From IMG/VR virus record IMGVR_UViG_2728369134_000004, positions 1-64,000 of that record: a DNA stretch of 64,000 bases; one strand, written 5' to 3'. Origin of the DNA: a virus (taxonomy: Duplodnaviria > Caudoviricetes). The translations under genes and the position numbers were made by a program. The notes beneath the pieces are model-generated. The model did no database searches. It had not been told where the DNA came from and saw only the letters and a list, made by a program, of their open reading frames with translations. Of this stretch, positions 2,972 to 54,269 are shown in pieces. How positions within the stretch are numbered: the first letter of the stretch is position 1; the number at the start of each line of letters is the position of its first letter.

Positions 2972-2983
2972 TTTCTCCCCTCC

Positions 2984-3103: not shown

Positions 3104-3122
3104 AATTGTTCCTCCTTTTAAG

Positions 3123-3191: not shown

Positions 3192-3266
3192 CGAAAAAAG
3201 TTTTACTAATTTCGATTGATGTTGTAAAATGAGTACAAGATAACCAGTGCTGCGGAGGAGAATAAA

Positions 3267-3503: not shown

Positions 3504-3536
3504 TCATTCGAAAATGATCAGCTCTTTTTTTCATCA

Positions 3537-4169: not shown

Positions 4170-5385
4170 ATCCTTTTAAATGCTCCCACATCATCTCGTT
4201 ACTAATGTAAGGCACTTGTATTTCTGTAAGTCTATCGGTTTTGAAAATTGCGCGTCCGGGAATGCTTTCTATCGTTTCTAATCCTGCTTCATCTATAACA
4301 ACACTTGAAGCTGTTTGAGTCGGTAATCTAAAGCCTAATTTCGCATCACTATTTTGTTTCACTTGGCGCGGTAATGTATCCCCTGTCGGGTACTGTGTAC
4401 AAAAAATCAATCTAAACCCTAAAGCGCCCCCTATGCGTGCTATATGAGAGAGCATTTGTTGACATGCTCCCAATAACCTTTGTTGTTCTTTTTTCATACT
4501 TTTATCTGGGCAAAGTTCAGCACCTTCATCTACTATAATGAAATAGCGCTCTTTGATATTTGTTTCTACAACGTTTGTATAATGTCTATCTTTCATGTAT
4601 TTCATTTTCTCTTCCATCTTCTCAAGAATATTATTTAGTATCATAAAAGCTTCTGTGGGCTTTTCAGCAATAGAAACTATTTGTTTTAAATTCTTATACG
4701 GCCCAAACTCCAAACCACCTTTTAAATCAATAATGTATAAATTAATATGTTCTGGTTGTGCTGTAATAAGAGAGGTAACGACATTTTTCAAAAAGACTGT
4801 TTTCCCCATCCTCGTTAATCCACCTAACGTCATATGAGGCGTTTTATCAAAATCATGATAAATAAGTTTTTCTAAACTTTGGCCCATTGGAACACACCAG
4901 TTTCCTTCTGCCACCAAATCTTTAGACCATGACCATTTTTTCGGTATATCTCTATGAAACACACGAATATTTAACTTGTAATTATCATAATCAATTCGGA
5001 CAGGTTTACTTAGCCCTTCAGAGACAACATCCTCGACCTTCTGAATAATTTTACTTGGCATTCCTACAGGCAAACGATATATATAAGTTGTACTTCGATC
5101 ATCCTCTTTTTGTTCAAGAAAAACTGGATACTGTAATCTGTCCTCTCTGCGTATCGCAATTCCGCTTACTTCAAAAAAAACTTGTATTTTCTTTCGATCA
5201 CTCTCTCTTTCTTTGAACCTTTCGCCAAATATAGCGAAAATTAAACCTGCGAATGGTACTGATAATAACTCCAGCATAAAATCACTCCTTATATCCCTCT
5301 TATAGAGGGTATATATCCCTGTTTCAAGGAATACGTGCATACAAGCTAAACTCCTTATGGCATAAGGGATAAAAAGTTTCCACAT
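4096..5385 (-). CDS. FtsK/SpoIIIE family ATPase (true start probably ~5277, MLELL)
   Basis: Walker A GGLTRMGKT, Walker B IIVDE, TQYP motif, N-terminal TM segment. Confidence 0.9.
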   Translation of the reverse strand: MWKLFIPYAIRSLACMHVFLETGIYTLYKRDIRSDFMLELLSVPFAGLIFAIFGERFKERESDRKKIQVFFEVSGIAIRREDRLQYPVFLEQKEDDRSTTYIYRLPVGMPSKIIQKVEDVVSEGLSKPVRIDYDNYKLNIRVFHRDIPKKWSWSKDLVAEGNWCVPMGQSLEKLIYHDFDKTPHMTLGGLTRMGKTVFLKNVVTSLITAQPEHINLYIIDLKGGLEFGPYKNLKQIVSIAEKPTEAFMILNNILEKMEEKMKYMKDRHYTNVVETNIKERYFIIVDEGAELCPDKSMKKEQQRLLGACQQMLSHIARIGGALGFRLIFCTQYPTGDTLPRQVKQNSDAKLGFRLPTQTASSVVIDEAGLETIESIPGRAIFKTDRLTEIQVPYISNEMMWEHLKGYEVEKHEDANTYANQPPNGDTCDD

Positions 5386-27152: not shown

Positions 27153-27491
27153 TCAGTTATTCTCCTTTCCATATTCTTTTTTAAATTTCTTTAATGCACG
27201 TTTGAACTTCCAGATAAAATACTTATCTTTTAACCGCACAAAAAAAGAAGGACAAAACTGTTTGTAGTTTTCTTTATCCTTCTTCAATAATTCTTCTAAT
27301 GATGTCCTAATAAGATAGTCATTTGAGTATGGCATAAAAACATGTTTATACATTTTGTAGTGGGTGAAACGTCTTGCATCTAATCCTACATCTTCCCGAA
27401 CTTTAAGATACCTGACATATATTGATTCATCTATAGGGAGTAAACCAAGAGCAACGATTTTCTTTTTTAAATCGTCATTCATAATCCTCAC
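27153..27491 (-). CDS. Hypothetical phage protein
   Basis: 112-aa ORF, translationally coupled. Confidence 0.65.
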   Translation of the reverse strand: MRIMNDDLKKKIVALGLLPIDESIYVRYLKVREDVGLDARRFTHYKMYKHVFMPYSNDYLIRTSLEELLKKDKENYKQFCPSFFVRLKDKYFIWKFKRALKKFKKEYGKENN

Positions 27492-27709
27492 TCCTTACTC
27501 TCTAAAAACTCATCAATCGCTTTCCCTAGTAAACTAATCGTCGCTTCCCTACGTTCTTTGGGAGTTGTATTATCAAAGAGCTCATTATGGATGGCAGTTG
27601 CTTGCGCCAACTTCTGGGGATCAATATGTTCATTAACTATTTTCTCACCAAGCGTTGAAACACAATATGTCATTACAGCTGCTAGTTCTTGTTTAGATAA
27701 CTTCTTCAA
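27488..27709 (-). CDS. Hypothetical phage protein
   Basis: 73-aa ORF with RBS. Confidence 0.65.
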   Translation of the reverse strand: MKKLSKQELAAVMTYCVSTLGEKIVNEHIDPQKLAQATAIHNELFDNTTPKERREATISLLGKAIDEFLESKE

Positions 27710-28912: not shown

Positions 28913-29320
28913 CTAAATGATACCTTCACGCTCCACGAACTTAATCAGTCGAACAAGTTCAGCATGTTTCTTTTTGATATGACTAGAACTATAATTTACT
29001 ACCTCTGCTATTTCTTCTAACGTCATACCATCCACATATTTCAATTTGAGTATCTGATTTTCTAATCCTCTAAACTTACTAATTAACTTTTTTAATTTAT
29101 ACATATCGTTCATCTTATGTGCTAATTCATATTCAATCGCTTCAATACGGTTTTCAACTTTTGCACCTTCAGATTCTGCCGTTAAACGTACTTCTCTCAA
29201 ATCACCACTAACCCAGCGTCTTAATTCGGCTTTTGTTTTATCTAAGTTGTATTCCAGATAGGCTATGTCTTCTTCTAACTTTTGGTAATCTCTCAGCCAG
29301 TTAAACAAATGATGATTCAC
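28913..29320 (-). CDS. Late transcription activator (RinA/ArpU/sigma-70 region 4-like)
   Basis: LKYVDGMTLEEIAEVVNYSSSHI HTH; last early gene. Confidence 0.8.
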   Translation of the reverse strand: MNHHLFNWLRDYQKLEEDIAYLEYNLDKTKAELRRWVSGDLREVRLTAESEGAKVENRIEAIEYELAHKMNDMYKLKKLISKFRGLENQILKLKYVDGMTLEEIAEVVNYSSSHIKKKHAELVRLIKFVEREGII

Positions 29321-29480
29321 CTACTTTCATATTTCCAGATCAACAACCACATTTCCGATTGTCGATAGGTGTCAAAATGTCTTGTTGTTTATTCTTACAA
29401 CTTGTACATTTGTTTTGCTATAATGGATTTACATTGCCATCTGGAAAAGTGACTTGCCCCATCGAGTTGCTTTTCCTTTT

Positions 29481-29756: not shown

Positions 29757-29969
29757 TTATTCGAACTTTTGTTCTCCGCTAACATTTATCTCACTAACTT
29801 CATTTATAATGACTCCTTTGTCTACTAAATCATCCTCAGTTCTTTTTAAACGTTTGATTGTATTAATAACTTCTTCTGTTGACTCTGCTTCAACGACAGC
29901 TTCATACACTTTTAATTCTGTGAAAGTCACATTAAATGTTTTCATTCTTTCTACTCCCTTTCTATTCAA
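29757..29969 (-). CDS. Hypothetical protein (cassette gene)
   Basis: Probable start MKTFNV directly after the motif and RBS. Confidence 0.65.
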   Translation of the reverse strand: MNRKGVERMKTFNVTFTELKVYEAVVEAESTEEVINTIKRLKRTEDDLVDKGVIINEVSEINVSGEQKFE

Positions 29970-30049
29970 ATAGCGTTTTTGTTCAAAATAATACTCCTAT
30001 CCATTTGGACACATTTACCAGTATTTTTACCAAAAAATTCATGATATGG

Positions 30050-30122
30050 TTATTTAGTCGAGTACGTCATTACTTGACAATTACCCTTAGGAACTCCGCA
30101 GACAAACGGGGTTTCTTTTATT
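30050..30122 (+). ncRNA. Putative sRNA cassette 1
   Basis: Hairpin 30057-30078, then terminator stem 30089-30116 with T tract; no ORF with RBS. Confidence 0.4.
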
Positions 30123-30138
30123 TAAATAACGATTTTGT

Positions 30139-30369
30139 TTAATTTCTAACTTTTATCACATTAGTTTTAAATGCTTCACCCTTACGGTTAAAAGATACAA
30201 TATTCATACCATGATAATCTCTGTGCCACCGGAAAGTTGGATCTAATCTATTATTAAACTCTCCATCAAACTTTCGTATCGTTGAAATTTTGATATTCTT
30301 CATTCCCATAAAATTTTCTTCACCTATTTTTGTCATTTGTCTATTTCTTGTATGTCTCATCCGTTCCAT
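30139..30369 (-). CDS. Hypothetical basic protein (cassette gene)
   Basis: 76 aa, GGAGGGG RBS, stop abuts the motif. Confidence 0.6.
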   Translation of the reverse strand: MERMRHTRNRQMTKIGEENFMGMKNIKISTIRKFDGEFNNRLDPTFRWHRDYHGMNIVSFNRKGEAFKTNVIKVRN

Positions 30370-30439
30370 TCCCCTCCATATCTTTTATCACTAAATGTAA
30401 ATATTAAGTTGTAAATTTAATTTACTTAGTGCTATAATT

Positions 30440-30542
30440 CGAGAGATCGATAGTTACATTCACTGATCAACCTCATGTAATTTTAATAAAAGTTCTCGAG
30501 ATTCAGCCCCTAACAGCGCACCGTTAGGGGCTGAATTCTTTC
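30440..30542 (+). ncRNA. Putative sigma-A sRNA cassette 2
   Basis: TTGTAA-N18-TATAAT with extended TG (30409-30438); perfect 14-bp terminator stem 30501-30536. Confidence 0.55.
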
Positions 30543-30599
30543 CAAATAAAGATTTTATTGTACAACTACACATACCTAAACAACATGCATACATTATGG

Positions 30600-30660
30600 T
30601 GTGTATTCATTCAATATAAGTTTTGGTAAGAGAGTTCTTTGGCAAGAGCTCTCTATTTTT
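30600..30660 (+). ncRNA. Putative sRNA cassette 3
   Basis: CATACATTA (sigma-K/E-like -10) at 30588-30596; terminator 30629-30660. Confidence 0.4.
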
Positions 30661-30676
30661 AAAATAAGAATTTTGT

Positions 30677-31351
30677 TTAGTATTCTGTCGAAGCAATGAT
30701 ACATGGATTTGTAATATTATCCCGCTTTATTACCCATTCGAATGACCTTAAAACATACGTTTCTCCACCTCTATGAATTACTGGTTCGATTGTGGCTACT
30801 CGTTGTTCTTCGTCAGGTAATTCATCAATGCTGATATGCATTTTGTCTTTCAAACTAACTTCCCCAACAAAATATTCTTCAATTTCCTCCCAATCTATGA
30901 ATTCCTCATAAAAGTTTTTCGCTTCCTCTTCGTTCTTTGCAGCTACCCAATCGTAATCATTCATTTTAAAAACTTTCATCAGTAGCTCTGGATTCTCATA
31001 AACATTTCCTACGACTTCACATTCTTCTGAAACCCAATCAATGTCCTCGTCAATTGGGCTATCCCCTAAATAAAACGAACAATTGCCATACGTTACTTTC
31101 CAATGACTATAAGTGGTCGCGGTGTTTTCTGGTGTTTCATACAGTGTAGGTCCTTTTAAAATGTCACCTACATAAATTTCTTTGCCGTTTTTATCCTTTA
31201 TTCCCGTGTATGGTAACAATGGAGAATAATATTGATCTTCTTTCCCGCCATTCTTCAAAGTGTCTTTTAAGCTATCAAAGTTCAAAATTTCTTCCCAGCT
31301 GTACATGATTCGATTTTCTTTACCATATATCCGATATTTAATTTCATTCAT
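30677..31351 (-). CDS. YopX family protein with an extra C-terminal domain
   Basis: IKYRIY...YTGIKDKNGKEIYVGDIL...EVVGNVYENPELL. Confidence 0.85.
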   Translation of the reverse strand: MNEIKYRIYGKENRIMYSWEEILNFDSLKDTLKNGGKEDQYYSPLLPYTGIKDKNGKEIYVGDILKGPTLYETPENTATTYSHWKVTYGNCSFYLGDSPIDEDIDWVSEECEVVGNVYENPELLMKVFKMNDYDWVAAKNEEEAKNFYEEFIDWEEIEEYFVGEVSLKDKMHISIDELPDEEQRVATIEPVIHRGGETYVLRSFEWVIKRDNITNPCIIASTEY

Positions 31352-31378
31352 ATCTCATTCTCCTTTTCTGCCAAATAA

Positions 31379-31924
31379 CTATTTTGTACTAATTGACTCC
31401 CAATCAAATGTTTCTAATATATTCAGTAATCGTTCCACTTTTGGTGCTCGCCATGCCGTCATAGCGTAAGTATGAGCTTTTGAAGTATAGTGGTAGTTAT
31501 TTAGTTTAAGATGATTTTTTGCTTCTTCTTTTGTTAAAAACATTGTGTCAGGAACAATGAAACCTTCTTCTTTCATAAAAGCTGTATCAAAGTAACCATC
31601 ATTATTTAAATTACTTTCTACATACTCCCATAAATCATCGAACCTCTCGCTTTCATCATAAATAAGCACCCTTAATTCCTGATCTTCATCAATCTCTTCA
31701 CTGTAATATTCCTCCAAGAACTCTTTCAAATCACTGAACTTATGAAAAGTAACAAGATCACCATCATTAAAGAATCGTTCCTCTTCACCGCTGTCGTATT
31801 TCTCATTTGCTGGAACCATTCTATAATCCTTAATAACCCAAAACCGTGGCGATGCATTTCCGTCAGTTTCCTGTGTAGTTAATTCTTGTTGCAATTCCTT
31901 TAAAAATTGAATATCCTTGTTCAT
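31379..31924 (-). CDS. Hypothetical phage protein (cassette gene)
   Basis: 181-aa ORF bounded by motifs. Confidence 0.75.
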   Translation of the reverse strand: MNKDIQFLKELQQELTTQETDGNASPRFWVIKDYRMVPANEKYDSGEEERFFNDGDLVTFHKFSDLKEFLEEYYSEEIDEDQELRVLIYDESERFDDLWEYVESNLNNDGYFDTAFMKEEGFIVPDTMFLTKEEAKNHLKLNNYHYTSKAHTYAMTAWRAPKVERLLNILETFDWESISTK

Positions 31925-31974
31925 TTCCCCGTTCCCCTTTACGAATAATCTTTTTTTACATTACACATACTATC

Positions 31975-32080
31975 TACAAGTCAACTTCCCATGACTACAC
32001 TCTTTCAAAACGGAGCTTGTTCCTCCGTACTGTTTTGGATCGCGGCAGGTAACTTAGTCACTTACCTGCCATTTTCTATT
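31975..32080 (+). ncRNA. Putative sigma-G-dependent sRNA cassette 4
   Basis: GAATA-N18-CATACTA (31943-31972); hairpin carrying TTCCTCC; terminator GGCAGGTAA/TTACCTGCC 32044-32070. Confidence 0.55.
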
Positions 32081-32096
32081 CAAATAACGCTTTTGT

Positions 32097-32486
32097 TTAG
32101 TTTTCAATTAGCACTAACAAGTCATAATTTGATTCAATAAATTCCATGCATAATTTTCTGTTTACGTCGTTTCCTAAACGTTCATAAATCAATAGCATTT
32201 CATGTTTTGTAAAGCTTGTCCCTAATAACTGGTTAAAGCTTTTTAAGATTTTTCTAGATTTATAATCACTCAAACTTTTACTAATTGGTCTTGATAACCA
32301 AGCAAACATCTTACATATAAAATCCATATGATTTTCTACATCTTCTAATCTGAAATAAAGGTTGCTTCTAGGGTCGAATATCAATTCGTTACTACTATTT
32401 ACAAAAGCCTTCGGGAAAAATCCCTGTGTCTTTTTTACTAAGCTTTGTACTTCTTCATTCATTTCTCGTTCCCCATTTCTGTACAA
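32097..32486 (-). CDS. Hypothetical phage protein (cassette gene)
   Basis: ~121-129 aa ORF bounded by motifs. Confidence 0.75.
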   Translation of the reverse strand: MYRNGEREMNEEVQSLVKKTQGFFPKAFVNSSNELIFDPRSNLYFRLEDVENHMDFICKMFAWLSRPISKSLSDYKSRKILKSFNQLLGTSFTKHEMLLIYERLGNDVNRKLCMEFIESNYDLLVLIEN

Positions 32487-32501
32487 AATTCAAATTTTGT
32501 C

Positions 32502-32984
32502 TTACTTTACGCCCGTACTTCCAAATCCACCTGTCCCACGATCACTACGTGATAGCTCGTCTACCTCAACAAAATTAGCTGTTTCGACTGGCGCTATGAC
32601 ACCTTGGGCGATGCGATCTCCCTTTTTAACCACATATGTCACACTCTTGAATATTTCATGTTCATCATTGATACCTAATGTAATTGAATTACCTGGATAT
32701 GATATATTGCTGACTATAACTCCTACCTCACCTCTAAAACCGCTATCCGCCGTACCGAGCACTACTCTAAGAAACGTTTTACGTGAAATTCCGCTTCTTG
32801 GTCTCACCTGAAGTTCAAATCCTGGTGGTATTTCGAATGCCAATCCTGTAGGGATTACTTTCGTTTGCCCTGGCTCAATAATTGTGCCTTCCGCTGCTAC
32901 AAGATCAAAACCGCTATCTCCTGGCTTCGCATACTTAGGCAAATCCACATCTTTCACTCGCTTAATCTTCACTCGTAAATTCAT
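32502..32984 (-). CDS. dut: Trimeric dUTPase
   Basis: SGFDL, RPRSG, GTADSGFRGE, RIAQ, RGTGGFGSTG motifs. Confidence 0.95.
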   Translation of the reverse strand: MNLRVKIKRVKDVDLPKYAKPGDSGFDLVAAEGTIIEPGQTKVIPTGLAFEIPPGFELQVRPRSGISRKTFLRVVLGTADSGFRGEVGVIVSNISYPGNSITLGINDEHEIFKSVTYVVKKGDRIAQGVIAPVETANFVEVDELSRSDRGTGGFGSTGVK

Positions 32985-33823: not shown

Positions 33824-34513
33824 CTAGCTGATTTGTTTCTTTTTGTATTTCCTTGGTGGTTTTGTTGCTGCCTCGTACGGATCCATCTTCCTTTTTACCC
33901 TTTGATAAAACGCTTTACTATTAATTCCGTTCGCTTCTGCTAAAGGAATGTATCTCTCAAACCCCTTTGGCTTTGTCGCTGCTTCGTATGGTGTCATTCC
34001 TTCTTTTCGGCGGCGATAGTATGTCGAATCGCTTATCCCATTACTTCTGGCTAATTTCAGCATTTTCACATTCTTTTCTTTCCCTTCATAACTCGTACCA
34101 ACTGGTGAAGTAATTGCGCGTTCCATCGTCCATCCATGACGTAATCTTTGGTCAAGCAACTTTTCACTCACTCCAATTGAAACAGCTTGTTTAATTTCCT
34201 CTTTGGATGGTTTTTGATAGTTTATTTTTCGATATACAGTCGCTGGGATTGTTGCTGCCTCTTCTGGTGTCCATTTCCGACGTTTCCCATATAGAATCCT
34301 CGATCTGAATGTTTTGTAATCAATTCCATTCTTCTTTGCTAACTCAACGTACTTTCGATACTTTCTTGCGAATTCGCCACTCAATGGTTCTGTAATTGCC
34401 TGCTCAACTGTTTTCTTTCCTTTTTTAATTCGTTGATTTACAGTCTGCCTACTAATACCATTCTGTTCCGCTATTTTATATTGCACTTCCGTTGGTTTCT
34501 CCTTACTTTCCAT
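33824..34513 (-). CDS. Repeat protein, 5 HTH-like units (PVL ORF50/SA1788-like repeat)
   Basis: A..NGI...T...R...W....A.T.P repeats. Confidence 0.75.
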   Translation of the reverse strand: MESKEKPTEVQYKIAEQNGISRQTVNQRIKKGKKTVEQAITEPLSGEFARKYRKYVELAKKNGIDYKTFRSRILYGKRRKWTPEEAATIPATVYRKINYQKPSKEEIKQAVSIGVSEKLLDQRLRHGWTMERAITSPVGTSYEGKEKNVKMLKLARSNGISDSTYYRRRKEGMTPYEAATKPKGFERYIPLAEANGINSKAFYQRVKRKMDPYEAATKPPRKYKKKQIS

Positions 34514-34883
34514 TCCTTGTCACCTTCTTTTTCCTTACCCTTGACGATATTTCTGCTGCTTCTTTTTTAGTCAATCTTGGGACTGTCGCAGCTTCAATTG
34601 GTTCCCAAAAAGATTCTTTAATACGTTGGCGAAATAACCGATATCCAATTCCGTTTTCCACCGCTATTGCTAGTTCTTTCTTGTACTTTTTCGTAAATGA
34701 TTCATTCACAGGTCGTGTGATAGCTTTTAATATGTTCCAACCTCGTATAATCCTCTGATCTACGTTGCATTTGCTAATACCATTGTTCTTAGCAATTTCA
34801 TATTGTTCCCAAGTTGGAACTGGAAGGTAATTATTCTCCGTGCTTGCATATTCTTCTTCGGCATACCACCGATCTAAATCCAT
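34503..34883 (-). CDS. Repeat protein, 2 HTH-like units
   Basis: Same repeat. Confidence 0.75.
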   Translation of the reverse strand: MDLDRWYAEEEYASTENNYLPVPTWEQYEIAKNNGISKCNVDQRIIRGWNILKAITRPVNESFTKKYKKELAIAVENGIGYRLFRQRIKESFWEPIEAATVPRLTKKEAAEISSRVRKKKVTRNGK

Positions 34884-34885
34884 TT

Positions 34886-35347
34886 TCAGATTGCCTCCTT
34901 CTTAGCTCTATGTTTAATATTAGGCGGAGTCGTTATAGCGCGTTCTATCTCCCATTTAAGTACAAAGACTCTAGTTCTTACTGTTCGTTTTCCAATGCCG
35001 TTATTTAGTGCTATGCGGTATTGTGACGGCGTTATGATATCTGTTTTGGAGTGTGCTCTTTTCGTGCATTCTATTGGCGATAAAACTGGCGTCGTTGCCG
35101 CATCATCAGGATTCCAGTTGTAACGTTTAATCCTGGAGAAGAACGTATCATATGAGATACCATTTTGTTGTGCCAATTCCCATTGTTTTGCATACAGTTT
35201 TTTTAAACTAACGAATAAAGGCTTACTAATTGCGTCCTTTACAGTCCAACCATAAACATTAATCCGCTGATCTACCGTACACTTCTTTATTCCGTTACGT
35301 TTTGCGATTTCATATTCTTCCCAAGTAGGAACAGGACTATATTCCAT
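34886..35347 (-). CDS. Repeat protein, 3 HTH-like units
   Basis: Same repeat. Confidence 0.75.
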   Translation of the reverse strand: MEYSPVPTWEEYEIAKRNGIKKCTVDQRINVYGWTVKDAISKPLFVSLKKLYAKQWELAQQNGISYDTFFSRIKRYNWNPDDAATTPVLSPIECTKRAHSKTDIITPSQYRIALNNGIGKRTVRTRVFVLKWEIERAITTPPNIKHRAKKEAI

Positions 35348-35372
35348 AAAGTTTCACCTTCCTCACTTTAAA

Positions 35373-35798
35373 TTAGTTACAACAACGTCTCCCGGTTTCT
35401 ATTGGCGGAACAGTAGCTGCCAATTCTATATCCCACTTATAATTACGTATCCGTGAGTGAAATGTTTGATAGTTAATTCCATTTGCTTCAGCTAACTTAG
35501 CCATTTCTTTAATAAATTCAGATGGCTTTTTAACTGGTTTCGTGGCTGCTTCTTCTGGAGTAAACCCTAAATTAATTCGGCTATAAAATGTGTTGGGATT
35601 CATTCCGTTTTTCACTGCGATTTCTAGCCAGATTTCAGATTGGCTTTTTTTAGAAGCGCGTTTCTTTCCTGGTGGGGTTGTTACGGCCTCTACAACATCC
35701 CAAGCGCAGTTGTAAACACGATTTCTTAAAGTATTCTTATTTATTCCGTTTTCTTCAGCTCGTTGATAATCAGATTGACTTAAAATCCCCTTTTTCAT
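35373..35798 (-). CDS. Repeat protein, 3 HTH-like units
   Basis: Same repeat. Confidence 0.75.
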   Translation of the reverse strand: MKKGILSQSDYQRAEENGINKNTLRNRVYNCAWDVVEAVTTPPGKKRASKKSQSEIWLEIAVKNGMNPNTFYSRINLGFTPEEAATKPVKKPSEFIKEMAKLAEANGINYQTFHSRIRNYKWDIELAATVPPIETGRRCCN

Positions 35799-39161: not shown

Positions 39162-39803
39162 CTAGTCAATAATTTTTAAGTATCTTGGTCTAGGTTGTTT
39201 AACTACCGATGTTTGTCCTGTCTCGTTATCTATTAGTATTTTTTTGTTACCAGTTTCGCACATAGTGTAGGTTTTCAGATCAGGGAAGACTTCTTCCGTA
39301 AGTCCCTTACCTGTTTCTTTTCTTTTAATTTCGCTCATGGTTGTGAATGAAGTGACGCAAAATTCAAAGATGTCATTCCAATCATGGTAATTAAACAAGA
39401 ACTCCGAAACAGATTCTCCGATTTTGGTGTCTATACCAATCTCGTTTATAGCCTCCATTGTGGAGTAATAATCCTTAATGCCAAACTTCTTACCCTTATA
39501 CTCTTTTGATATCGGGAATATAGTCATAAATTCTCTTGGCGTTAACTCACCTATAACTTCTTTTATCCAACTAATAAGCTGAAATTTAGCTATCAATCCT
39601 TCATATGAATTTATATCTTTTAATTGGTTAACAAACTTAATTCCGTAGTACACTATTTTTCGAATCGTATCTTTATCACACGCCCCTGTTTCAGCGATTT
39701 GTTGAGTTCTGTCATTAGTTACTTTAGTGAAAACTCTGCTATAAATAGCGCAGTAATCAATTTCTTTCTTTTTAATTCCAGCTATAACTCGAAATTTTCC
39801 CAT
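39162..39803 (-). CDS. Hypothetical phage protein
   Basis: 213-aa ORF. Confidence 0.75.
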   Translation of the reverse strand: MGKFRVIAGIKKKEIDYCAIYSRVFTKVTNDRTQQIAETGACDKDTIRKIVYYGIKFVNQLKDINSYEGLIAKFQLISWIKEVIGELTPREFMTIFPISKEYKGKKFGIKDYYSTMEAINEIGIDTKIGESVSEFLFNYHDWNDIFEFCVTSFTTMSEIKRKETGKGLTEEVFPDLKTYTMCETGNKKILIDNETGQTSVVKQPRPRYLKIID

Positions 39804-39837
39804 GCTACTTCCACCCCCTCTTACATAATTTGTAGAT

Positions 39838-40413
39838 TTACTTACCTCCTTTTTGTGTAAAATTATTTAATTTTTTCCATGTGAGTTCTTTAAGGAGCTG
39901 TTTGTGTTTTTTTACTAAGCAGTTCGGTATATCGTCAATGGATTTCAACCCTAATTGCTGTTTTAAGTAGGACGTTATTTGTCTCATAACTTTAGTTGTG
40001 TCTTTCTTAATTAAGTCTCGAACAGCTTGTTCTAAGTCATTTTTCGAGCCTTCCATCGCTTCGAATGTGAGTTGTACTTTGTTTCCTACAAATTGTTGCG
40101 CTTTTCGATGACGATCTTTTTGCAAATCATCACGGATTATTTTTGAAGCTACATTTGATAACTGCGCCTTTGTTAGTCTTTCGTCAAAACTCCCTACAGT
40201 TTGGTCTAGCGTTTCGACTTTTTCTGTGTGCATATCAACTGCCTCGCCAAGCTTCCCTACATCTTGACCTACTTCTTCTAACATGTTGCTTTGACTCGCG
40301 AATTGCGTTTGTACCAACGCAAATAACTTTTCAATCATTGCATCGTTGCTTCTCTTAATAACTAAATCCCCTGATTCGTTAAGCGTGATTGGTAATTGTC
40401 TAATTGGATCCAT
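39838..40413 (-). CDS. Coiled-coil phage protein
   Basis: 191-aa ORF. Confidence 0.75.
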   Translation of the reverse strand: MDPIRQLPITLNESGDLVIKRSNDAMIEKLFALVQTQFASQSNMLEEVGQDVGKLGEAVDMHTEKVETLDQTVGSFDERLTKAQLSNVASKIIRDDLQKDRHRKAQQFVGNKVQLTFEAMEGSKNDLEQAVRDLIKKDTTKVMRQITSYLKQQLGLKSIDDIPNCLVKKHKQLLKELTWKKLNNFTQKGGK

Positions 40414-40427
40414 TTTTATTCCTCCAG

Positions 40428-41351
40428 TTAATTAATTTTTCTGCCTGTTTGAGCGATTTTTAAATCATTTATGAACTCTTGAAAGGCTTGAATACGCGAA
40501 TTAAGTAAATCTTTAGTAGCATCACTCGAATTCGCTATTGAACCCCTCATAAGAGAAGAAACCACTGCATCTTTTAAGAACTTGTCCATGTATGCAATAA
40601 GGTTATGAACGTTCTTATTGGAAATATAATTCATTGACTTTTCTTCTTTTTCCATGTCGTTTGCATCTTTAGATAATGCATCAGCTTTTTGTTTGTAGAA
40701 ATCAGCGTTGTCTTTATACTCTTGATTCTCTTCTTTTAACCTTTCAATCTCGTTAAGAAGGTCATCCGGAACAACTGGTACTTCTTTTACTATCTCTTTT
40801 TCAACAACTTGAGGTTCTTGATTATGTACGTTTTCTAGTTGTTTCATTGCGACTTGCTCTGATTTTCTTGCTTGTTCTAATTCCCTTTGTGATTCTTGTA
40901 TTTTGTGCTCTGCTTGTTCTAAGAGCTTGTCCTTTTCTTTAAGGGACTTTTTCACTTCCCGAAGCTCACGAACCGTCATTTCATCGACTGTTTTTTGTTC
41001 CCCTGTTGATGGAATGGTATGTGGTTGTTCGATGAATTGTTGGCGATCTATTTCTTGTGGAAGTGATAACATTTCAAAAATTTTATTTGGCGCTAAATTC
41101 CACGACGTCGTGGAATTTTCGAATTGTTCGTAAGCGCGCATGAATCTCCTTGCTTGTTCTTGCGAAAAATCCAGTTGATTCTCGCACCATCTACCAAATT
41201 CACCATGCATCAAATCATTTTCTTTCGCATGTTTTAATCGCTTTCCAATTTCAAATATCGACTGTCCTGCAATTTGTTGATAGCTTTTTATTTCTGCTGT
41301 AATGACGTTGATGTCGTTTGATAAGTTCATCACTTCATTCATTCGTTTCAC
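40428..41351 (-). CDS. DUF3102-domain protein
   Basis: [13 protein letters not shown]...HGEFGRW...MTVRELRE. Confidence 0.85.
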
Positions 41352-41386: not shown

Positions 41387-41626
41387 TTATTTCCCCTCCG
41401 TTCTTGATGTTGTCATTTCGACAACATTTTGAGCAAAAAAAAGTTCATCTATTGATACTCCAAGTGCATTTGCTAGGGTAGGTATCTTTTCAGCATCTAA
41501 TCTTCTCTTTCCGTTTTCTATGAAAGAAATAGCTGAAGCGTGGCTGAAGTCAAGCTTCTTAGCTAATTTTTCTTGAGTAATATTCTTTTGCTTGCGAATA
41601 TCTCGAACTCTGCTTCCGAAAGTCAT
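41387..41626 (-). CDS. Cro-like XRE regulator
   Basis: TQEKLAKKL...ISFIENGKR; first lytic gene. Confidence 0.9.
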   Translation of the reverse strand: MTFGSRVRDIRKQKNITQEKLAKKLDFSHASAISFIENGKRRLDAEKIPTLANALGVSIDELFFAQNVVEMTTSRTEGK

Positions 41627-41765
41627 ATCCGCTTCACCTCCTGTCGTTGTCGTTTTGACAACTTCTTGATTTCATTATAGGTTGTCATTTCGTAAATGTA
41701 AACCCCGTTTTGTCATTTTGTTAAAAATATTTTTACAGATAGTGAAAAGTTGTCAAAAAGTATAT
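41407..41765. promoter_or_regulatory. Switch operators GTTGTC-N5-GACAAC
   Basis: Perfect copies 41409-25 and 41646-62; degenerate copies 41681-97, 41709-25, 41749-65. Confidence 0.75.
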
Positions 41766-41853
41766 ATACTGTAATTAAAGAACAATGCTTTGCAATGCAA
41801 AACATTGCAAACTACACAATGGGATCTTATTTATAAAGGGGAATAATAAAATT

Positions 41854-42694: not shown

Positions 42695-43834
42695 TCATTT
42701 CAAAGCCATTTTAGGTAGGGAAATATAGAAAAAATCACCTGTTTTTTCAAAATCTGCTATGGCCTCTTCAAAGAATGTTTTATCTCCTGTAGCAAGACCT
42801 TTGTAGTATTTTTGGAAAGGAGAAAGACTGCCATATTTCTTTTCTAACCCCTCTAAAATAATAATCGCCTCTTTCTCTCTGCCTATTTTTGCGTATAAAT
42901 GTGCTTTTTCAGCTAAACTCGACGGGTTTATTTTATCAAGATTCTTTTCATGAACTATATTAAGAAAATCAAGCGTGTTTTTTATAAACCCTTTACGATT
43001 AAGAAGTTTTTTATTTGTAATGATTGGAAGAGTGGCGAAAGATTGTTCTAAAAAATAATGTGCCTTTTCATAATCCATCATATGCGTTTCGGCCAATGTA
43101 CAATAAGCTAATGATTTCATACAATCATAAGGATTAGTTTCATCGTTTATAATTTCGAAACATAATTTCCTCGCAGTCTCTAAATCATTTCCTCTTTGTG
43201 CACTCATTGACTCCATTTCTTTTATTCGTAATGAATATGATTTTCTAATGGTATCTTTACTAACATCATCAATCATTGGTTTCAATTGATTTGTATATTG
43301 TGAAACCATTCGATAGTCGCCAAAATTTAGTTGAGCATATATAAACGCAAACCCTGATAATATTTTAGCTTCGTTGTTAGATGTTTTAAAAGAATTCCTC
43401 ATCTTGTCCGTCTCCACAAAAAAGTCATTATTAGATATCCTTCCAGACAGTCGCAGAGCAAGTAAATCATAAATAGATGCTATTTTCTTATTTATTCTTG
43501 CGTTTTTCGTAGTTTTATCTGAGTTTATTATTTTAGCGGTCAATTGTTTTTGTAATCCGTATTCGCCATACATATTCAAAACTTCCATGGCTACCCGTTC
43601 ATTAACTGGCGTTAATTGTTCGAACATTTTTTTGACGCATTCTCTTCTATAGTTGATGTTATTCGGTTTATGCAACCTCAATGATTCTACAAAGTGCATA
43701 AAGTCAAATTCACTAGTCGCTTTAAAATAACTGTTCACAGTTGTGTGACTAACATCGAATCGTTTAGCTAATTTACGATTCGTGTACCCGTTACTCTTTA
43801 AATCCTCATGCATGTTACTTAATAAACTCTGCAT
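42695..43834 (-). CDS. aimR: Arbitrium receptor AimR (HTH plus TPR)
   Basis: ~379 aa; N-terminal HTH, TPR-like helices, C-terminal FEKTGDFFY; followed by aimP. Confidence 0.9.
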   Translation of the reverse strand: MQSLLSNMHEDLKSNGYTNRKLAKRFDVSHTTVNSYFKATSEFDFMHFVESLRLHKPNNINYRRECVKKMFEQLTPVNERVAMEVLNMYGEYGLQKQLTAKIINSDKTTKNARINKKIASIYDLLALRLSGRISNNDFFVETDKMRNSFKTSNNEAKILSGFAFIYAQLNFGDYRMVSQYTNQLKPMIDDVSKDTIRKSYSLRIKEMESMSAQRGNDLETARKLCFEIINDETNPYDCMKSLAYCTLAETHMMDYEKAHYFLEQSFATLPIITNKKLLNRKGFIKNTLDFLNIVHEKNLDKINPSSLAEKAHLYAKIGREKEAIIILEGLEKKYGSLSPFQKYYKGLATGDKTFFEEAIADFEKTGDFFYISLPKMALK

Positions 43835-43934
43835 TATTTGTCCTCCTCGTGGACAAAAAGACACGTAAACCCCATTTTCTTACATAAAAGGAAAACGTGT
43901 CACTCTCACTCTAAGTTGTGTTATAATATGTATG

Positions 43935-51970: not shown

Positions 51971-52756
51971 CTATTCTTTTGTATAGAAGTATTTAAGTCC
52001 TTTCGCATCTAACCATGCTGTTGCTCGATCTAGTTCATTCCCTTGGCGAAATGCTGTTTCAAATCTAACTAATCCTTGTTTATCTCCATATGAGATAATA
52101 CGAGATTCATAACCTAGGGCATCCATCATTCCTAACATCTCAGGTACTAACGCTGTACCAAACTCATACGTAACAACTTTGCTAAATTTATTCACTGTAA
52201 TCTCCACCTCTCTGTTATTTGTACTTGATTGAATTGTTTTGCCAACAATAACCTCAGCTACCGCTTTAGCTGCCTTGTCAAAGTTAGCACGGTATTTTTG
52301 CATATCTGTTTCATTATCAATAAAGCAGATTTCTGGAAGTAGTCCGGTCTTCGTTTTATTAATCCAACCTAATTCTGTTGAAAACTTAATTCCTCTATCT
52401 CTTAATCCAAATGCATCGGCCATCGCTTTTGAAATTTTAGCTGCTAATTCTCTATTACCGTATGAAGGATGTAACCACACTTCACAACCTGTACCGCCTG
52501 GAGTGGCATTTAAATGGAACTGTAAATCTACATCACTATCTTTAACTCGTAAGTGGTTATTTGCTGCATTATTCCAAACATCGTATTTTGTCGTTCCTAC
52601 TTCGTCAGAACAGTTCACATAATCCCATCCTGCTGATTGTACATATTTAGCAACTGCGTCAAGAAACCTTCTATCCTCCACATGTTCTTTCCCATAAGCG
52701 CTATTTGCACCTTGTACGATACTATTGTGACCACCTGATCCTGCGAAACAACCCAT
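51971..52756 (-). CDS. Endolysin, Amidase_3 plus cell-wall binding domain
   Basis: GGH...KE...FHLNA...PEICFIDN. Confidence 0.9.
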   Translation of the reverse strand: MGCFAGSGGHNSIVQGANSAYGKEHVEDRRFLDAVAKYVQSAGWDYVNCSDEVGTTKYDVWNNAANNHLRVKDSDVDLQFHLNATPGGTGCEVWLHPSYGNRELAAKISKAMADAFGLRDRGIKFSTELGWINKTKTGLLPEICFIDNETDMQKYRANFDKAAKAVAEVIVGKTIQSSTNNREVEITVNKFSKVVTYEFGTALVPEMLGMMDALGYESRIISYGDKQGLVRFETAFRQGNELDRATAWLDAKGLKYFYTKE

Positions 52757-52772
52757 TATTCAACATCTCCTT

Positions 52773-53021
52773 TTAGTGTAAGTTATTTTTTTGTAATACA
52801 TCTTTTTGTTGTAATCCTTTATTGCTTAAATAGTTATTCTTCCATGCCATATATAGAGTGAAAGCTCCTGTAATTACTGCCACTAAATCGTTTGTAATTT
52901 TGTCATCAATCGTTTGGTACCCAATAAGATTCAAAACACTGTTAATCACAGCGATTACTAATACGACATAACGACTAATTGAAGCTGCATCAAAGTTTTT
53001 CATAACCTCACCTCCTTTCAA
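52773..53021 (-). CDS. Holin, SPP1 family
   Basis: ISRYVVLVIAVIN...AWKNN. Confidence 0.9.
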   Translation of the reverse strand: MKGGEVMKNFDAASISRYVVLVIAVINSVLNLIGYQTIDDKITNDLVAVITGAFTLYMAWKNNYLSNKGLQQKDVLQKNNLH

Positions 53022-53045
53022 TAAAAAAAGTGACCGTATATACGA

Positions 53046-53285
53046 TCACTTCCCTGCGAATTTAAAAAGAGCCATTATCCCACCAGTGATAATAGCTCCA
53101 ACTACTGTAGTACCAATCCAAAATACGAATTTATCTAATCGATCAATCCTCAAATGAGCACTTTTCGCTGACTGCTGCGCTTCAATTGCAACATCCTTAA
53201 CGTTACCAAGCGTATCTAACTTTGTTTCCACCCTTGTTAATCCAACTAATAATTCCTTAAAGTCATCATGTTTTTGTTCTGGCAT
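53046..53285 (-). CDS. XhlA-like membrane protein
   Basis: LTRVETKLD...AHLRIDRL plus TM. Confidence 0.8.
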   Translation of the reverse strand: MPEQKHDDFKELLVGLTRVETKLDTLGNVKDVAIEAQQSAKSAHLRIDRLDKFVFWIGTTVVGAIITGGIMALFKFAGK

Positions 53286-53300
53286 TTATTAAGCCTCCTT

Positions 53301-54269
53301 TTAAGCTGCAAAGCAACTTGGATCCATTCCGAAAATATCTGCAATATCTTCCTCACTCCTATCTTTTAAATAGGATTGTGTTGTCGAAATATCCGAATGA
53401 TTTGCAAGTGATTTTAATTTTTCGAGTGGTACACCTTGCACTTTTAAATTATCTAATCTGCTATGACGAAAACAGTGAGGATTCATTTTATATTCCTTAC
53501 CTTCTTTTTCGTATAACATCTTAGAAAATATCTTGCACCAGTAATTAAATGCGCTCTTATTTAAAAGTTTTCGTTCACCATTCTTATAAACTCGTACGAA
53601 CAAATCTGGAATAGCATCTTTACCGCGCTGTTCTATATATAAACGAATACATTTCTGTACTCGGGGATTATAATACAATCTGAATTTCTTACCTCGCTTA
53701 CCACGTACTACATTCGTAAAATAACGTTCTGTTAGTTCTTCTTTTTGAACTTGGTAAACTTCATTCTTCCTTGCTGCACTGTAGTAAGAAAGCGCTAAAT
53801 AGGTTGCTAACATATATTTCTCTTGTTTAAGTAATTCATCGATTAACCACTCAATTTGTTCTTCAGTTATAAAAGTGATTTCTCTGACTGGATTCTTAGG
53901 TAATCCGCGGACCCGTGAACCTACATTAAATTCATACTCATAGTCATCATCGTCCGCACAAAATTCAAGTGCTGAACGCAATGCACTCATTAATCCATTC
54001 ACACGTGCATTAGACATTCCCAGCTCTTGAAAAATAATAGATAAGTTTCGAATATCTTTACGTGTTAATTCAGTTAGATTTTTATTTTCGAAGTGTTCAT
54101 GTATTAGAAACAAAATAATTCGTAAATCCCAATTGTATTGTTTTAAAGTGCTTGCCGCTTTCCCTTGTGCTTTCTTTTCGATTAGAAAATCTTTGACTAG
54201 GTTTTTGTTTTCTTGGCTAACATGCTTTTCATAAATTGCTTGGTCTACTATTCGTTTCACAATGATCAT
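53301..54269 (-). CDS. Tyrosine recombinase (Xer-like)
   Basis: SAARKNE, GKRGK, PHCFRHS, NHSDISTTQSY; catalytic set intact. Confidence 0.93.
   Translation of the reverse strand: MIIVKRIVDQAIYEKHVSQENKNLVKDFLIEKKAQGKAASTLKQYNWDLRIILFLIHEHFENKNLTELTRKDIRNLSIIFQELGMSNARVNGLMSALRSALEFCADDDDYEYEFNVGSRVRGLPKNPVREITFITEEQIEWLIDELLKQEKYMLATYLALSYYSAARKNEVYQVQKEELTERYFTNVVRGKRGKKFRLYYNPRVQKCIRLYIEQRGKDAIPDLFVRVYKNGERKLLNKSAFNYWCKIFSKMLYEKEGKEYKMNPHCFRHSRLDNLKVQGVPLEKLKSLANHSDISTTQSYLKDRSEEDIADIFGMDPSCFAA

What the first reader, a model, noticed from the sequence alone, without database searches (positions are those of the whole stretch)
29967..32501. Integron-like cassette array: eight 17-bp sites each delimit a gene or sRNA unit
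Seen, minus strand, in transcription order: GACAAAATTTGAATTTT, AACAAAAGCGTTATTTG, TAAAAAAAGATTATTCG, TACAAAATAGTTATTTG, AACAAAATTCTTATTTT, AATAAAATCTTTATTTG, AACAAAATCGTTATTTA, AACAAAAACGCTATTTG. All have the same orientation and length. Five touch or overlap the stop codon of the preceding gene. Four are followed directly by an RBS and four by the terminator of a non-coding unit. The intervals hold: 129-aa gene | sRNA | 181-aa gene | YopX | sRNA | sRNA plus 76-aa gene | sRNA, with a 70-aa gene after the last site. The core is CAAA-N7-TTTG, and the first site, after dUTPase, sits in the palindrome ACAAAATT-nn-AATTTTGT. Known: tyrosine recombinase core sites are short inverted arms around a 6-8 bp spacer, and integrons stack cassettes at such sites. 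Inference: a phage system that captures and shuffles gene cassettes, which I do not recognise as described. Alternatives are an RNA processing/antitermination signal or a protein-binding site. Caveat: the motif is AT-rich in an AT-rich genome, so the positional regularity is the main evidence.
Basis: partly seen in the sequence, partly recalled or inferred. Interest (0 to 1): 0.9.

Follow-up and report, generated by a model that had tools for sequence, protein, structure and literature searches.

The report
Conserved linker motif between swappable phage genes
A short, conserved 17-base signal sits at the boundaries of a run of small accessory genes in Bacillus cereus-group phages, and related phages differ by whole units swapped exactly at these signals, but nothing shows an integron-like enzyme doing the swapping.

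Summary
The motif is real. Six minus-strand copies of AACAAAA-N3-TTATTTG lie in 29967-32097 (0.32 expected; 0 of 100 shuffles reach 6).

Ordered arrays of the same motif occur in 31 loci from B. cereus-group phages and prophages. They are always on the sense strand and sit in one 2-3 kb accessory region. The central triplets run GCG-TAG-TTC-TCT-TCG-ACG in 23 of 31 arrays.

Between sites lie 128 units in 87 unrelated families. Blocks 99.7-100% identical to the window start and stop inside the sites.

The cassette-like modularity is therefore supported. The integron reading is not:
- the sites are too short for folded attC sites;
- slot order is conserved;
- no recombinase is adjacent, and none is shared by six array-bearing phages.

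A control also weakens any special recombination role. Gene boundaries without the motif, upstream of dut, collect homology breakpoints about as often.

Best reading: a conserved intercistronic linker, probably an expression signal, at which co-linear phages exchange modules by short-homology recombination. It resembles T4 PeSLs and mycobacteriophage SAS. Thirty of 89 sites abut an antisense-oriented terminator, which suggests reverse-oriented self-contained units.

The parts
32502..32984 (-). dUTPase gene; left anchor of the array
   Evidence: Pfam dUTPase E 1.3e-25, phrog_135
32485..32501 (-). A degenerate, distinct 'slot 0' linker inside the palindrome ACAAAATTTGAATTTTGT, touching the dut stop codon.
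   Evidence: PWM below 9 bits. The same element follows other dut alleles in L132 and L135, with different genes after it. Megablast hits H28-H30 cover only this element.
32097..32486 (-). 129-aa gene (phrog_7711, function unknown); sense unit
32081..32097 (-). Linker site with central triplet GCG (0 mismatches); its first base is the last base of the stop codon
   Evidence: It is the first site in 23 of 31 arrays.
31959..32080 (.). Non-coding unit with two hairpins. One (32010-32028) was scored as a +-strand terminator; the second was read by eye.
   Evidence: and the sequence. The unit is 93-96% identical in L003, L006 and L132, with different genes after it.
31942..31958 (-).
   Evidence: PWM below 9 bits. 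Homology blocks end 26-46 nt past its first base. Contigs of an RNA run diverge at 31958.
31379..31924 (-). 181-aa gene (phrog_3205, function unknown); sense unit
31372..31388 (-). Linker site with central triplet TAG; here the triplet is the stop codon of the 181-aa gene
   Evidence: A 99.76%-identical block shared with L003 starts at motif position +1.
30677..31351 (-). 224-aa YopX-domain gene; sense unit
   Evidence: Pfam YopX E 3.9e-17
30661..30677 (-). Linker site with central triplet TTC
   Evidence: Blocks 99.7-99.8% identical with L005 and L129 start 4 nt before it.
30560..30660 (.). Non-coding unit whose hairpin 30629-30654 reads as a +-strand intrinsic terminator
   Evidence: family F1, present in 7 arrays
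30543..30559 (-). Linker site with central triplet TCT
   Evidence: A 100%-identical 436-nt block shared with phage LY4 starts at motif position 0.
30370..30542 (+). Non-coding unit with a +-strand promoter-like site (30409-30438, 10 of 12 matches, TG-extended) and a strong hairpin at about 30500-30535. Candidate reverse-oriented small RNA gene.
   Evidence: for the promoter-like site. The hairpin was read and was not scored by the scan. Not tested by expression data.
30139..30369 (-). 76-aa gene (phrog_2487, function unknown)
30123..30139 (-). Linker site with central triplet TCG
   Evidence: Blocks shared with L003, L129 and L149 end at motif position +15 to +18.
29984..30122 (.). Non-coding unit whose hairpin 30089-30116 reads as a +-strand intrinsic terminator
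   Evidence: family F2, present in 6 arrays
29967..29983 (-). Linker site with central triplet ACG; last site of the array
   Evidence: It is the last site in 27 of 31 arrays.
29757..29969 (-). 70-aa gene (phrog_1235, function unknown) after the last site
28913..29320 (-). Late-gene activator candidate (Sigma70_r4 domain, phrog_36); right anchor of the region

Best explanation
The region is an ordered array of conserved intercistronic linkers in the accessory-gene region of a temperate Bacillus cereus-group siphophage. The region runs between dut and the late activator. The linker is AACAAAA-N3-TTATTTG on the sense strand, starting at the stop codon of the upstream gene.

Shown:
- The motif is non-random and confined to this region.
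- It is conserved across several phage genera and prophages.
- Each position in the array has its own central triplet, in a conserved order.
- The stretches between sites are interchangeable, mostly unrelated units.
- Blocks of near-identity between phages begin and end inside the sites.

The units are of two kinds. Some are promoterless sense ORFs preceded by a strong Shine-Dalgarno sequence. Others carry an antisense-oriented terminator abutting the site, which suggests they are self-contained and reverse-oriented.

Inferred:
- Exchange happens by ordinary recombination between co-linear phage or prophage genomes, across the 17-30 nt of shared linker and Shine-Dalgarno sequence. Selection then keeps gene-boundary joints. 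No dedicated integrase is involved.
- The two 7-nt arms stay constant across all slots because they carry a cis-acting expression signal on the early polycistronic transcript or its DNA. Candidates are an intercistronic translation, pausing or processing signal, or a protein-binding site.
- The slot-specific triplets keep exchanges in register.
For: Non-randomness: 6 matches with at most 1 mismatch against 0.32 expected, and 0 of 100 shuffles reach 6.

Confinement: in five complete phage records of 39-61 kb, 24 of 25 matches with at most 1 mismatch lie in one 2-3 kb array, all on the forward strand.

Spread: arrays were found in 31 loci, including Cecivirus, Hubeivirus and Wbetavirus phages, phBC6A51/52 and prophages of B. 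thuringiensis, B. dicomae, B. pfraonensis, B. arachidis and B. fungorum.

Order: 23 of 31 arrays keep the order GCG-TAG-TTC-TCT-TCG-ACG. GCG is first in 23 and ACG last in 27.

Units: 128 units fall in 87 families. The GCG-TAG slot holds 14 families and the TAG-TTC slot 13.

Breakpoints:
- 87 of 182 HSP starts and 50 of 220 HSP ends lie in the motif +/-10 nt, which is 6.6% of the sequence. Starts pile up at -13 to +1 and ends at +15 to +16.
- Blocks 99.7-100% identical to the window are bounded by sites.
- Independent contigs from two RNA runs diverge at 29963, 30124/30127, 31958 and 32096/32107.

Position on the transcript: the stop codon ends at motif position -1, 0 or +1 in 39 of the 65 sites with a detected upstream ORF. 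In 49 of 90 sites an SD and start codon follow 7-68 nt downstream (47 of them at 7-23 nt), with a mode of 20-21 nt.

Arms versus centre: in the logo of 89 sites the arms carry 1.2-1.7 bits per position, apart from the first and last base (0.6-0.9), and the first central position 0.3 bits.
Against: A control region without the motif, upstream of dut in 11 loci, also concentrates breakpoints at gene boundaries. There 55 of 214 starts and 76 of 225 ends fall in equivalent windows covering 7.5% of the sequence. Pooled, that is 30%, against 34% at the motif. So the motif is not shown to recombine better than any other gene boundary.

Six of 18 multi-member unit families occur between different triplet pairs. 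In those cases the joints fall within a 7-nt arm plus the Shine-Dalgarno region. That is very short for homologous recombination.

No expression signal was demonstrated:
- the motif holds no sigma-70-like promoter (flanks);
- it matches no Rfam family;
- it has no stable fold by sequence;
- the raw RNA reads tried held none of this sequence.

The sites were collected with a PWM, which inflates the apparent conservation of the arms.
Confidence: 0.55

Rival explanations
1. The motif is purely a regulatory signal, and the coincidence with breakpoints is incidental. It would be a cis-acting element of this operon segment. Options are a protein-binding roadblock or regulator site ahead of the late activator (stoperator-like), an RNA processing or stability site, or a pause site. 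The mosaic joints fall there only because selection keeps joints at any gene boundary.
For: - Gene boundaries without the motif collect breakpoints at a similar rate.
- The motif is restricted to the 2-3 kb upstream of the late-activator region.
- The strand is strictly the sense strand, and the site sits at stop codons.
- The two 7-nt arms lie one helical turn apart, around a variable centre.
- The right arm TTATTT fits the TTNTTT NusG-dependent pause consensus of B. subtilis. That consensus is recalled from memory and comes from no call.
Against: - No cognate protein was found. The cI/cro operators are GACAA/TTGTC-type repeats, and no PWM hit of 9 bits or more lies in 41626-41785.
- phrog_1065 HTH paralogs occur in loci with and without arrays.
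- This reading does not explain why each slot keeps its own triplet in a conserved order across phages whose flanking units are unrelated.
- 30 of 89 sites are followed by an antisense terminator rather than by a sense gene.
Confidence: 0.25
2. A dedicated motif-directed cassette-exchange system. A host or phage enzyme would recognise the arms and exchange strands at the sites. The different central triplets would act like heterospecific spacers, so that only equivalent slots recombine, as in recombinase-mediated cassette exchange.
For: - A 436-nt unit is 100% identical between the window and phage LY4. It is bounded by motif position 0 of one site and +15 of the next, with unrelated DNA outside.
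- Some units sit between different triplet pairs, with joints mapping inside a 7-nt arm.
- The arms are conserved and the centre is slot-specific.
Against: - No recombinase is adjacent. The only Phage_integrase ORF in the window is more than 21 kb away.
- ORF families found in all six array-bearing phages are two tail-protein families, one 73-aa protein of unknown function (phrog_2395) and one family of short ORFs scattered on both strands that I did not examine and take to be spurious. None is a recognisable recombinase.
- A 3-nt centre and non-palindromic 7-nt arms do not fit known tyrosine recombinase core sites, which have a 6-8 bp spacer. That figure is textbook knowledge and was not tested here.
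- Breakpoints are equally common at boundaries without the motif.
- No circles or excision products could be looked for.
Confidence: 0.1
3. A chance pattern in AT-rich intergenic DNA.
For: The motif is A/T-rich in a genome of 32-38% GC. With 2 mismatches allowed, 4 further matches occur elsewhere in the window, and the total of 10 is reached by 1 of 100 shuffles.
Against: 0 of 100 shuffles reach 6 matches with at most 1 mismatch. The same ordered array recurs in 31 loci.

Of 120 viral contigs picked up by a single exact match (1.06 Mb), only 4 carried 3 or more PWM hits. In all four the sites lie on one strand with GCG/ACG-type triplets, like the Bacillus arrays.
Confidence: 0.01

Closest known systems
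PeSL (promoter-early stem-loop) mobile regulatory cassettes of T4-type phages (PMC2839356: abstract and section 13 read; PMC4122927: search listing and start of abstract only)
   Same: Both are repeated short intergenic motifs concentrated in the hyperplastic accessory region. They run from the upstream stop codon to the Shine-Dalgarno sequence of mostly ORFan genes. Insertions, deletions and replacements between related phages have their ends at the motifs.
   Different: PeSLs are composites of a sigma-70 promoter and a terminator stem-loop, and both activities were shown. The Bacillus 17-mer holds no promoter-like hexamers and no stem-loop of its own. Nearby hairpins point the opposite way. 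The Bacillus sites carry slot-specific centres in a conserved order. Mini-circles were not testable here.
Start-associated sequences (SAS/ESAS) of Cluster K mycobacteriophages (PMC3203893: passages read)
   Same: Both are short asymmetric repeats, almost all in one orientation, restricted to the non-structural part of the genome. They sit at gene starts, sometimes overlap the upstream stop codon, are linked to genes of different families, and have no known function.
   Different: The SAS contains the Shine-Dalgarno core and lies 3-7 bp from the start codon. The Bacillus motif lies upstream of the Shine-Dalgarno sequence, mostly 7-23 nt from the start, and a third of the sites have no downstream sense gene. 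SAS sites were not described as ordered slots or as mosaic joints in the passages I read.
Boundary or linker sequences at module junctions of lambdoid phages
   Same: Short conserved sequences between otherwise unrelated alleles, proposed to guide homologous exchange while keeping gene order.
   Different: Here one consensus is reused at six or more consecutive junctions, with a position-specific centre. That regularity is, to my recollection, not described for lambdoid phages.
Stoperators of Cluster A mycobacteriophages (PMC9283540: search listing and start of abstract only; the rest recalled)
   Same: Asymmetric 13-17 bp sites in short intergenic spaces near stop codons, oriented with transcription.
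   Different: Stoperators are bound by the immunity repressor, match the operator at the early promoter, and are spread over the whole genome. Here the cI/cro operators are unrelated and the sites are confined to 2-3 kb.
Integron attC/attI cassette arrays
   Same: Tandem promoterless genes in one orientation, separated by a recurring site that touches the stop codon.
   Different: No adjacent integrase, no folded attC-type palindromes of 57-141 nt, and conserved rather than shuffled order. Some units are reverse-oriented with their own terminator.

Membership tests
Integron | intI tyrosine recombinase gene next to the array, with attI and Pc | tested here: not met
   The ORFs flanking the array are dut, small unknown genes, a Sigma70_r4 activator and a DNA methylase. 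The only Phage_integrase ORF is 53301-54269. No recombinase family is shared by six array-bearing phages.
Integron | attC sites: imperfect palindromes of about 57-141 nt that fold as single strands | tested here: not met
   The sites are 17 nt and the best inverted arms are CAAA/TTTG, 4 bp. The size range is recalled.
Integron | Cassettes inserted at attI, so that order varies freely | tested here: not met
   23 of 31 arrays keep the same order of site types.
PeSL-type mobile regulatory cassette | Repeated intergenic motif concentrated in the hyperplastic region, with indel and replacement ends at the motif | tested here: met
   The control shows that motif-less boundaries behave similarly.
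PeSL-type mobile regulatory cassette | Motif contains a sigma-70-type early promoter | tested here: not met
   No promoter-like site overlaps the six strong sites on the gene strand. The logo shows no conserved -35 upstream.
PeSL-type mobile regulatory cassette | Motif contains a terminator or attenuator stem-loop for the sense transcript | tested here: not met
   A sense-oriented terminator-like hairpin lies within 70 nt in 2 of 89 sites, and an antisense-oriented one in 30 of 89.
PeSL-type mobile regulatory cassette | Mini-circles formed by exchange between neighbouring motifs | not testable with these tools
   Raw reads of the two runs tried held none of this sequence, and only one lay was allowed.
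SAS (Cluster K mycobacteriophages) | Asymmetric repeat in one orientation, in the non-structural region, upstream of genes of different families | tested here: met
SAS (Cluster K mycobacteriophages) | Repeat occupies the ribosome-binding site, 3-7 bp from the start codon | tested here: not met
   The motif ends mostly 7-23 nt (mode 20-21) before the start codon and lies upstream of the Shine-Dalgarno sequence. 41 of 90 sites have no such start.
Stoperator | Same sequence as the repressor operator at the early lytic promoter | tested here: not met
   No PWM hit of 9 bits or more lies in 41626-41785. The operator-like repeats there are TTGTCATTT / GACAAC.
Stoperator | Bound by the immunity repressor, blocking elongation | not testable with these tools
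   Needs binding and transcription assays.
Boundary or linker sequences (modular theory) | Short conserved sequence shared by otherwise unrelated alleles at a module junction, with order preserved | tested here: met

The most novel reading that the evidence does not exclude
The array is a natural cassette-exchange device. A still unidentified host or phage factor recognises AACAAAA-N3-TTATTTG and promotes strand exchange at it. The slot-specific central triplets work like heterospecific spacers, so that accessory genes and reverse-oriented small-RNA or protein units are swapped slot for slot between co-infecting phages without scrambling or deleting the array.
Probability: 0.1. Interest if true: 0.9.

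Novelty: new variant of a known kind. Interest (0 to 1): 0.55.

Why it matters
The motif gives a precise sequence-level rule for where the hypervariable accessory region of B. cereus-group temperate phages is cut and re-joined.

It marks true gene boundaries for dozens of tiny ORFs. It also flags non-coding units that may be reverse-oriented small-RNA genes.

It defines ordered slots in which at least 87 unrelated unit families were seen in 31 arrays. That makes the region a ready hunting ground for host-takeover, anti-defence or lysogenic-conversion functions.

It offers a tractable system to test whether short conserved linkers really drive phage mosaicism, or whether selection at gene boundaries alone does.

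If a dedicated mechanism were found, it would be a new kind of site-directed gene exchange.

Tried and rejected
- **Exact-pattern scans of public collections.** The scan of viral contigs and an extended pattern on genome contigs gave mostly single chance hits. Only loci with several PWM hits were kept. L257 (Flavobacterium, 2 hits) entered by mistake and was dropped. L213 (2 hits) was kept.
- **Genome relatives.** I used related loci and handles instead.
- **Rfam at E up to 1.** Only a spurious U4 match at 18.6 bits against a gathering score of 46.
- **RNA evidence.** Two raw-read runs held no read of this stretch. Two contig runs hold mosaic relatives but give no strand or transcript ends. 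Depth there is not a measure of expression.
- **Candidate cognate proteins.**
  - Four tandem phrog_1065 HTH paralogs occur in loci with and without arrays.
  - The small integrase next to ArpU is absent from the window and not annotated there in J5a.
  - The 73-aa phrog_2395 protein is shared by six array-bearing phages, but its presence in array-less relatives could not be judged because the loci were too short.
  - NCBIfam and Pfam gave nothing for the unknown early proteins at 39162-41351.
- **Promoter reading of the motif.** Rejected.
- **RNA hairpin reading.** Rejected by sequence: the stem would be 4 A-U-rich pairs, and variants are not compensatory.
- **Resemblances to ComK, CodY, cre and SpoIIID boxes.** Considered from memory and dropped as poor fits. 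Not tested.
- **Earlier findings of this scan.** Nothing.
- **Literature.** Searches and term searches in two phage-genome papers (PMC8878798; PMC5590980) found no description of this motif. Their supplementary tables were not seen and could hold notes on repeats.


Full report
**What the window is.**
The record is a single 79,309-bp virus contig, and the window is its first 64 kb. Genes around the finding run on the minus strand. In order they are:
- an AimR-like regulator, and cI- and cro-like HTH genes (41.4-43.9 kb);
- DnaD- and DnaC-like replication genes;
- four tandem paralogs of an HTH family (phrog_1065, 33824-35798);
- a glutaredoxin-like gene;
- dUTPase (32502-32984);
- the region in question;
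- a Sigma70_r4 late-activator candidate (28913-29320);
- a DNA methylase, an HNH gene and the small and large terminase subunits.

**Check of the observation.**
Six match AACAAAANNNTTATTTG with at most one mismatch. They are the only such matches in 64 kb, against 0.32 expected, and 0 of 100 dinucleotide-preserving shuffles reach 6.

A PWM built from them finds nothing above 15.1 bits elsewhere in the 79-kb record, while the six score 18.9-24.6 (circular for the six).

Site 1 is a different element, the palindrome ACAAAATTTGAATTTTGT. It recurs after other dut alleles, with different genes behind it. Site 3 is a decayed copy.

The statements about stop codons and ribosome-binding sites hold.

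The four hairpins need a correction. They are preceded by A-runs and read as intrinsic terminators on the opposite strand. The scan lists three of them on the + strand, at 30089-30116, 30629-30654 and 32010-32028.

**The motif elsewhere.**
I found same-strand arrays in these places:
- six GenBank phages of three genera (PfNC7401, A16R4, 11143, PfEFR-4, MY192, J5a);
- LY4, phBC6A51 and phBC6A52;
- 11 of the 21 viral contigs that encode a related dUTPase, each with two or more sites; seven of the other ten had no site at 15 bits or more;
- 4 of 120 viral contigs picked up by one exact match;
- genome contigs labelled B. thuringiensis, B. dicomae, B. pfraonensis, B. arachidis, B. fungorum, B. proteolyticus and 'Paenibacillus sp. 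102'.

In five complete phage records, 24 of 25 matches with at most one mismatch lie in one 2-3 kb stretch, all on the forward strand. phBC6A51 has a different replication module (DNA polymerase I) and no dut annotated in the stretch fetched, yet it carries a seven-site array. The array therefore behaves as a module of its own.

**Anatomy.**
I examined about 90 distinct site contexts.
- The last base of the upstream stop codon lies at motif position -1, 0 or +1 in 39 of the 65 sites with a detected upstream ORF.
- 49 of 90 sites are followed by a Shine-Dalgarno sequence and a start codon, 47 of them 7-23 nt downstream, with a mode of 20-21 nt.
- 30 of 89 sites are followed within 70 nt by an antisense-oriented terminator-like hairpin. 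Only 2 of 89 have a sense-oriented one. Upstream of the sites the counts are 1 and 1.
- In phBC6A52 a motif site and its antisense-oriented hairpin lie next to the 3' end of one of two reverse-strand collagen-repeat genes in the array region.

I read the units as being of two kinds. One kind is promoterless sense ORFs fed by the early transcript. The other is reverse-oriented, self-contained units whose terminator abuts the site. A sense-oriented terminator would cut off the late activator, which may be why such units point backwards (inference).

In the logo the arms carry 1.2-1.7 bits per position, apart from the first and last base (0.6-0.9). The first central position carries 0.3 bits. Weaker conservation extends into the last codons upstream (AAAAYTA) and into an extended Shine-Dalgarno region downstream. 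PWM selection inflates the values for the arms.

**Slots.**
The central triplet depends on position in the array. Of 31 arrays, 23 keep the order GCG-TAG-TTC-TCT-TCG-ACG. GCG is first in 23 and ACG last in 27. Of 159 sites, 137 carry one of the six triplets. Some loci are near-duplicates of each other, so these counts are not independent.

Between the sites lie 128 units in 87 sequence families. There are 14 families in the GCG-TAG slot and 13 in the TAG-TTC slot. Six of the 18 multi-member families occur between different triplet pairs. PfEFR-4 and LY4 carry internal repeats of the TTC...TCG series, as an unequal exchange would produce.

**Breakpoints.**
In an all-against-all BLAST of 22 arrays, 87 of 182 distinct HSP starts and 50 of 220 ends fall in the motif +/-10 nt. 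That window is 6.6% of the sequence. Starts pile up at -13 to +1 and ends at +15 to +16.

Against the window itself the blocks are bounded as follows:

| Partner | Block length | Identity | Starts at | Ends at |
|---|---|---|---|---|
| phage 11143 (L003) | 1264 nt | 99.76% | TAG site, position +1 | TCG site, position +15 |
| MY192 (L005) | 714 nt | 99.7% | 4 nt before the TTC site | ACG site, position +15 |
| LY4 (L149) | 436 nt | 100% | TCT site, position 0 | TCG site, position +15 |

Outside the LY4 block no other part of the array matches LY4.

Contigs of two RNA-library runs hold mosaic relatives. They diverge from the window at 29963, 30124/30127, 31958 and 32096/32107. They also diverge at 30005 and 30366, which are not sites. 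Only 12 loose ends were listed, and 173 more were not shown.

**The control that limits the claim.**
The motif-free region upstream of dut in 11 loci also concentrates breakpoints at gene boundaries. There 55 of 214 HSP starts and 76 of 225 ends lie in equivalent 37-nt windows at stop codons, which cover 7.5% of the sequence.

Pooled, that is 30%, against 34% at the motif. Joints at gene boundaries are thus general in these phages. The data show that exchanges go through the sites. They do not show that the sites raise the rate of exchange.

**Against an integron.**
- The sites are 17 nt with at most 4-bp inverted arms.
- The order of site types is conserved.
- No recombinase flanks the array.
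- The small integrase next to ArpU in some relatives is absent from the window and is not annotated there in J5a.
- Only four ORF families occur in all six array-bearing phages: two tail-protein families, a 73-aa protein of unknown function, and a family of short ORFs scattered on both strands that I did not examine and take to be spurious.

**Against a stoperator.**
The cI/cro intergenic operators are TTGTCATTT / GACAAC repeats and are unrelated to the motif.

**Against a promoter or structured RNA.**

**Most likely mechanism.**
Shown:
- a conserved, strand-specific, position-specific linker at the boundaries of interchangeable units;
- exchange joints that lie inside it.

Inferred:
- Exchange is by single crossovers between co-linear phage or prophage genomes, across the 17-30 nt shared by equivalent slots. 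Two such events in succession leave one unit in a foreign context.
- The differing triplets cut the identity between non-equivalent slots to 7 nt, which keeps exchanges in register.
- The arms are held constant by a cis-acting role in expressing this operon segment. I cannot say which role. The options are an intercistronic translation or pausing signal, a processing site or a protein-binding site.

I give this composite reading 0.55, a purely regulatory element with incidental joints 0.25, and a dedicated motif-directed exchange system 0.10.

**Novelty.**
The closest known things are:
- T4-type PeSLs (PMC2839356, abstract and section 13 read);
- Cluster K SAS/ESAS (PMC3203893, passages read);
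- lambdoid boundary sequences (recalled);
- stoperators (PMC9283540, listing only).

This motif differs from each of them. It has no promoter or stem-loop of its own. It lies upstream of the Shine-Dalgarno sequence. It is reused at six or more consecutive junctions with an ordered, slot-specific centre. It often abuts antisense terminators.

My searches and term searches in two papers on these phages found no description of it. Supplementary files were not seen.

I rate it a new variant of a known kind, with interest 0.55.

Noticed in passing
window 33824-35798 (-): Four tandem paralogs (229, 126, 153 and 141 aa) of phrog_1065. They have an N-terminal HTH and weak PVL_ORF50 / 'HNH endonuclease' phrog similarity, and sit just upstream of dut. 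Homologs occur in related loci with and without motif arrays.
   Followed up: partly
window 30370-30542 (+): A +-strand promoter-like site (TTGTAA-18-TATAAT with TG, 30409-30438) lies about 60 nt before a strong hairpin and T-run that end at the TCT site. This would be a reverse-oriented small RNA of about 95 nt. The unit is conserved in at least seven other loci.
   Followed up: partly
L150 (phBC6A52) 1284-4331: Two reverse-strand collagen-triple-helix-repeat genes sit in the region of the motif array. A motif site with an antisense-oriented hairpin lies next to the 3' end of one of them.
   Followed up: partly
L001 4681, L004 6639, L132 11224: A perfect 11-4-11 palindrome, ACATACAAAATTAACATTTTGTATGT, lies about 1.3 kb downstream of the arrays and ahead of the ArpU region in three phages. 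It shares the CAAAAT/ATTTTG half-sites with site 1. It is absent from the window's 24-36 kb stretch.
   Followed up: no
window 27488-27709 (-): A 73-aa ORF (phrog_2395, no Pfam match) is the only small unknown protein family found in all six array-bearing phages compared. It lies in the late region after the activator.
   Followed up: partly
window 42695-43864 (-): An AimR-like regulator (Pfam AimR, E 1.8e-43) lies next to the cI/cro-like genes, which suggests an arbitrium-type lysis-lysogeny switch.
   Followed up: no
window 51971-54269 (-): A PlyG-type amidase with a cell-wall-binding domain (51971-52756) lies directly downstream of the tyrosine integrase (53301-54269). This order is unusual for one prophage, so the contig may hold parts of two elements.
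   Followed up: no
window 29443-29476 (+): A further antisense-oriented terminator-like hairpin (14 pairs plus a T-run) lies between the 70-aa gene and the late activator, outside the motif array.
   Followed up: no
L173 75-362: A Pseudolactococcus hodotermopsidis contig holds three exact matches to the extended pattern, spaced 132 nt apart. It looks like an unrelated tandem repeat.
   Followed up: no
L127 10276-10330 compared with window 30089-30122: One relative lacks exactly the roughly 35 nt that hold the hairpin after the TCG site. This is a clean deletion of the antisense terminator.
   Followed up: no
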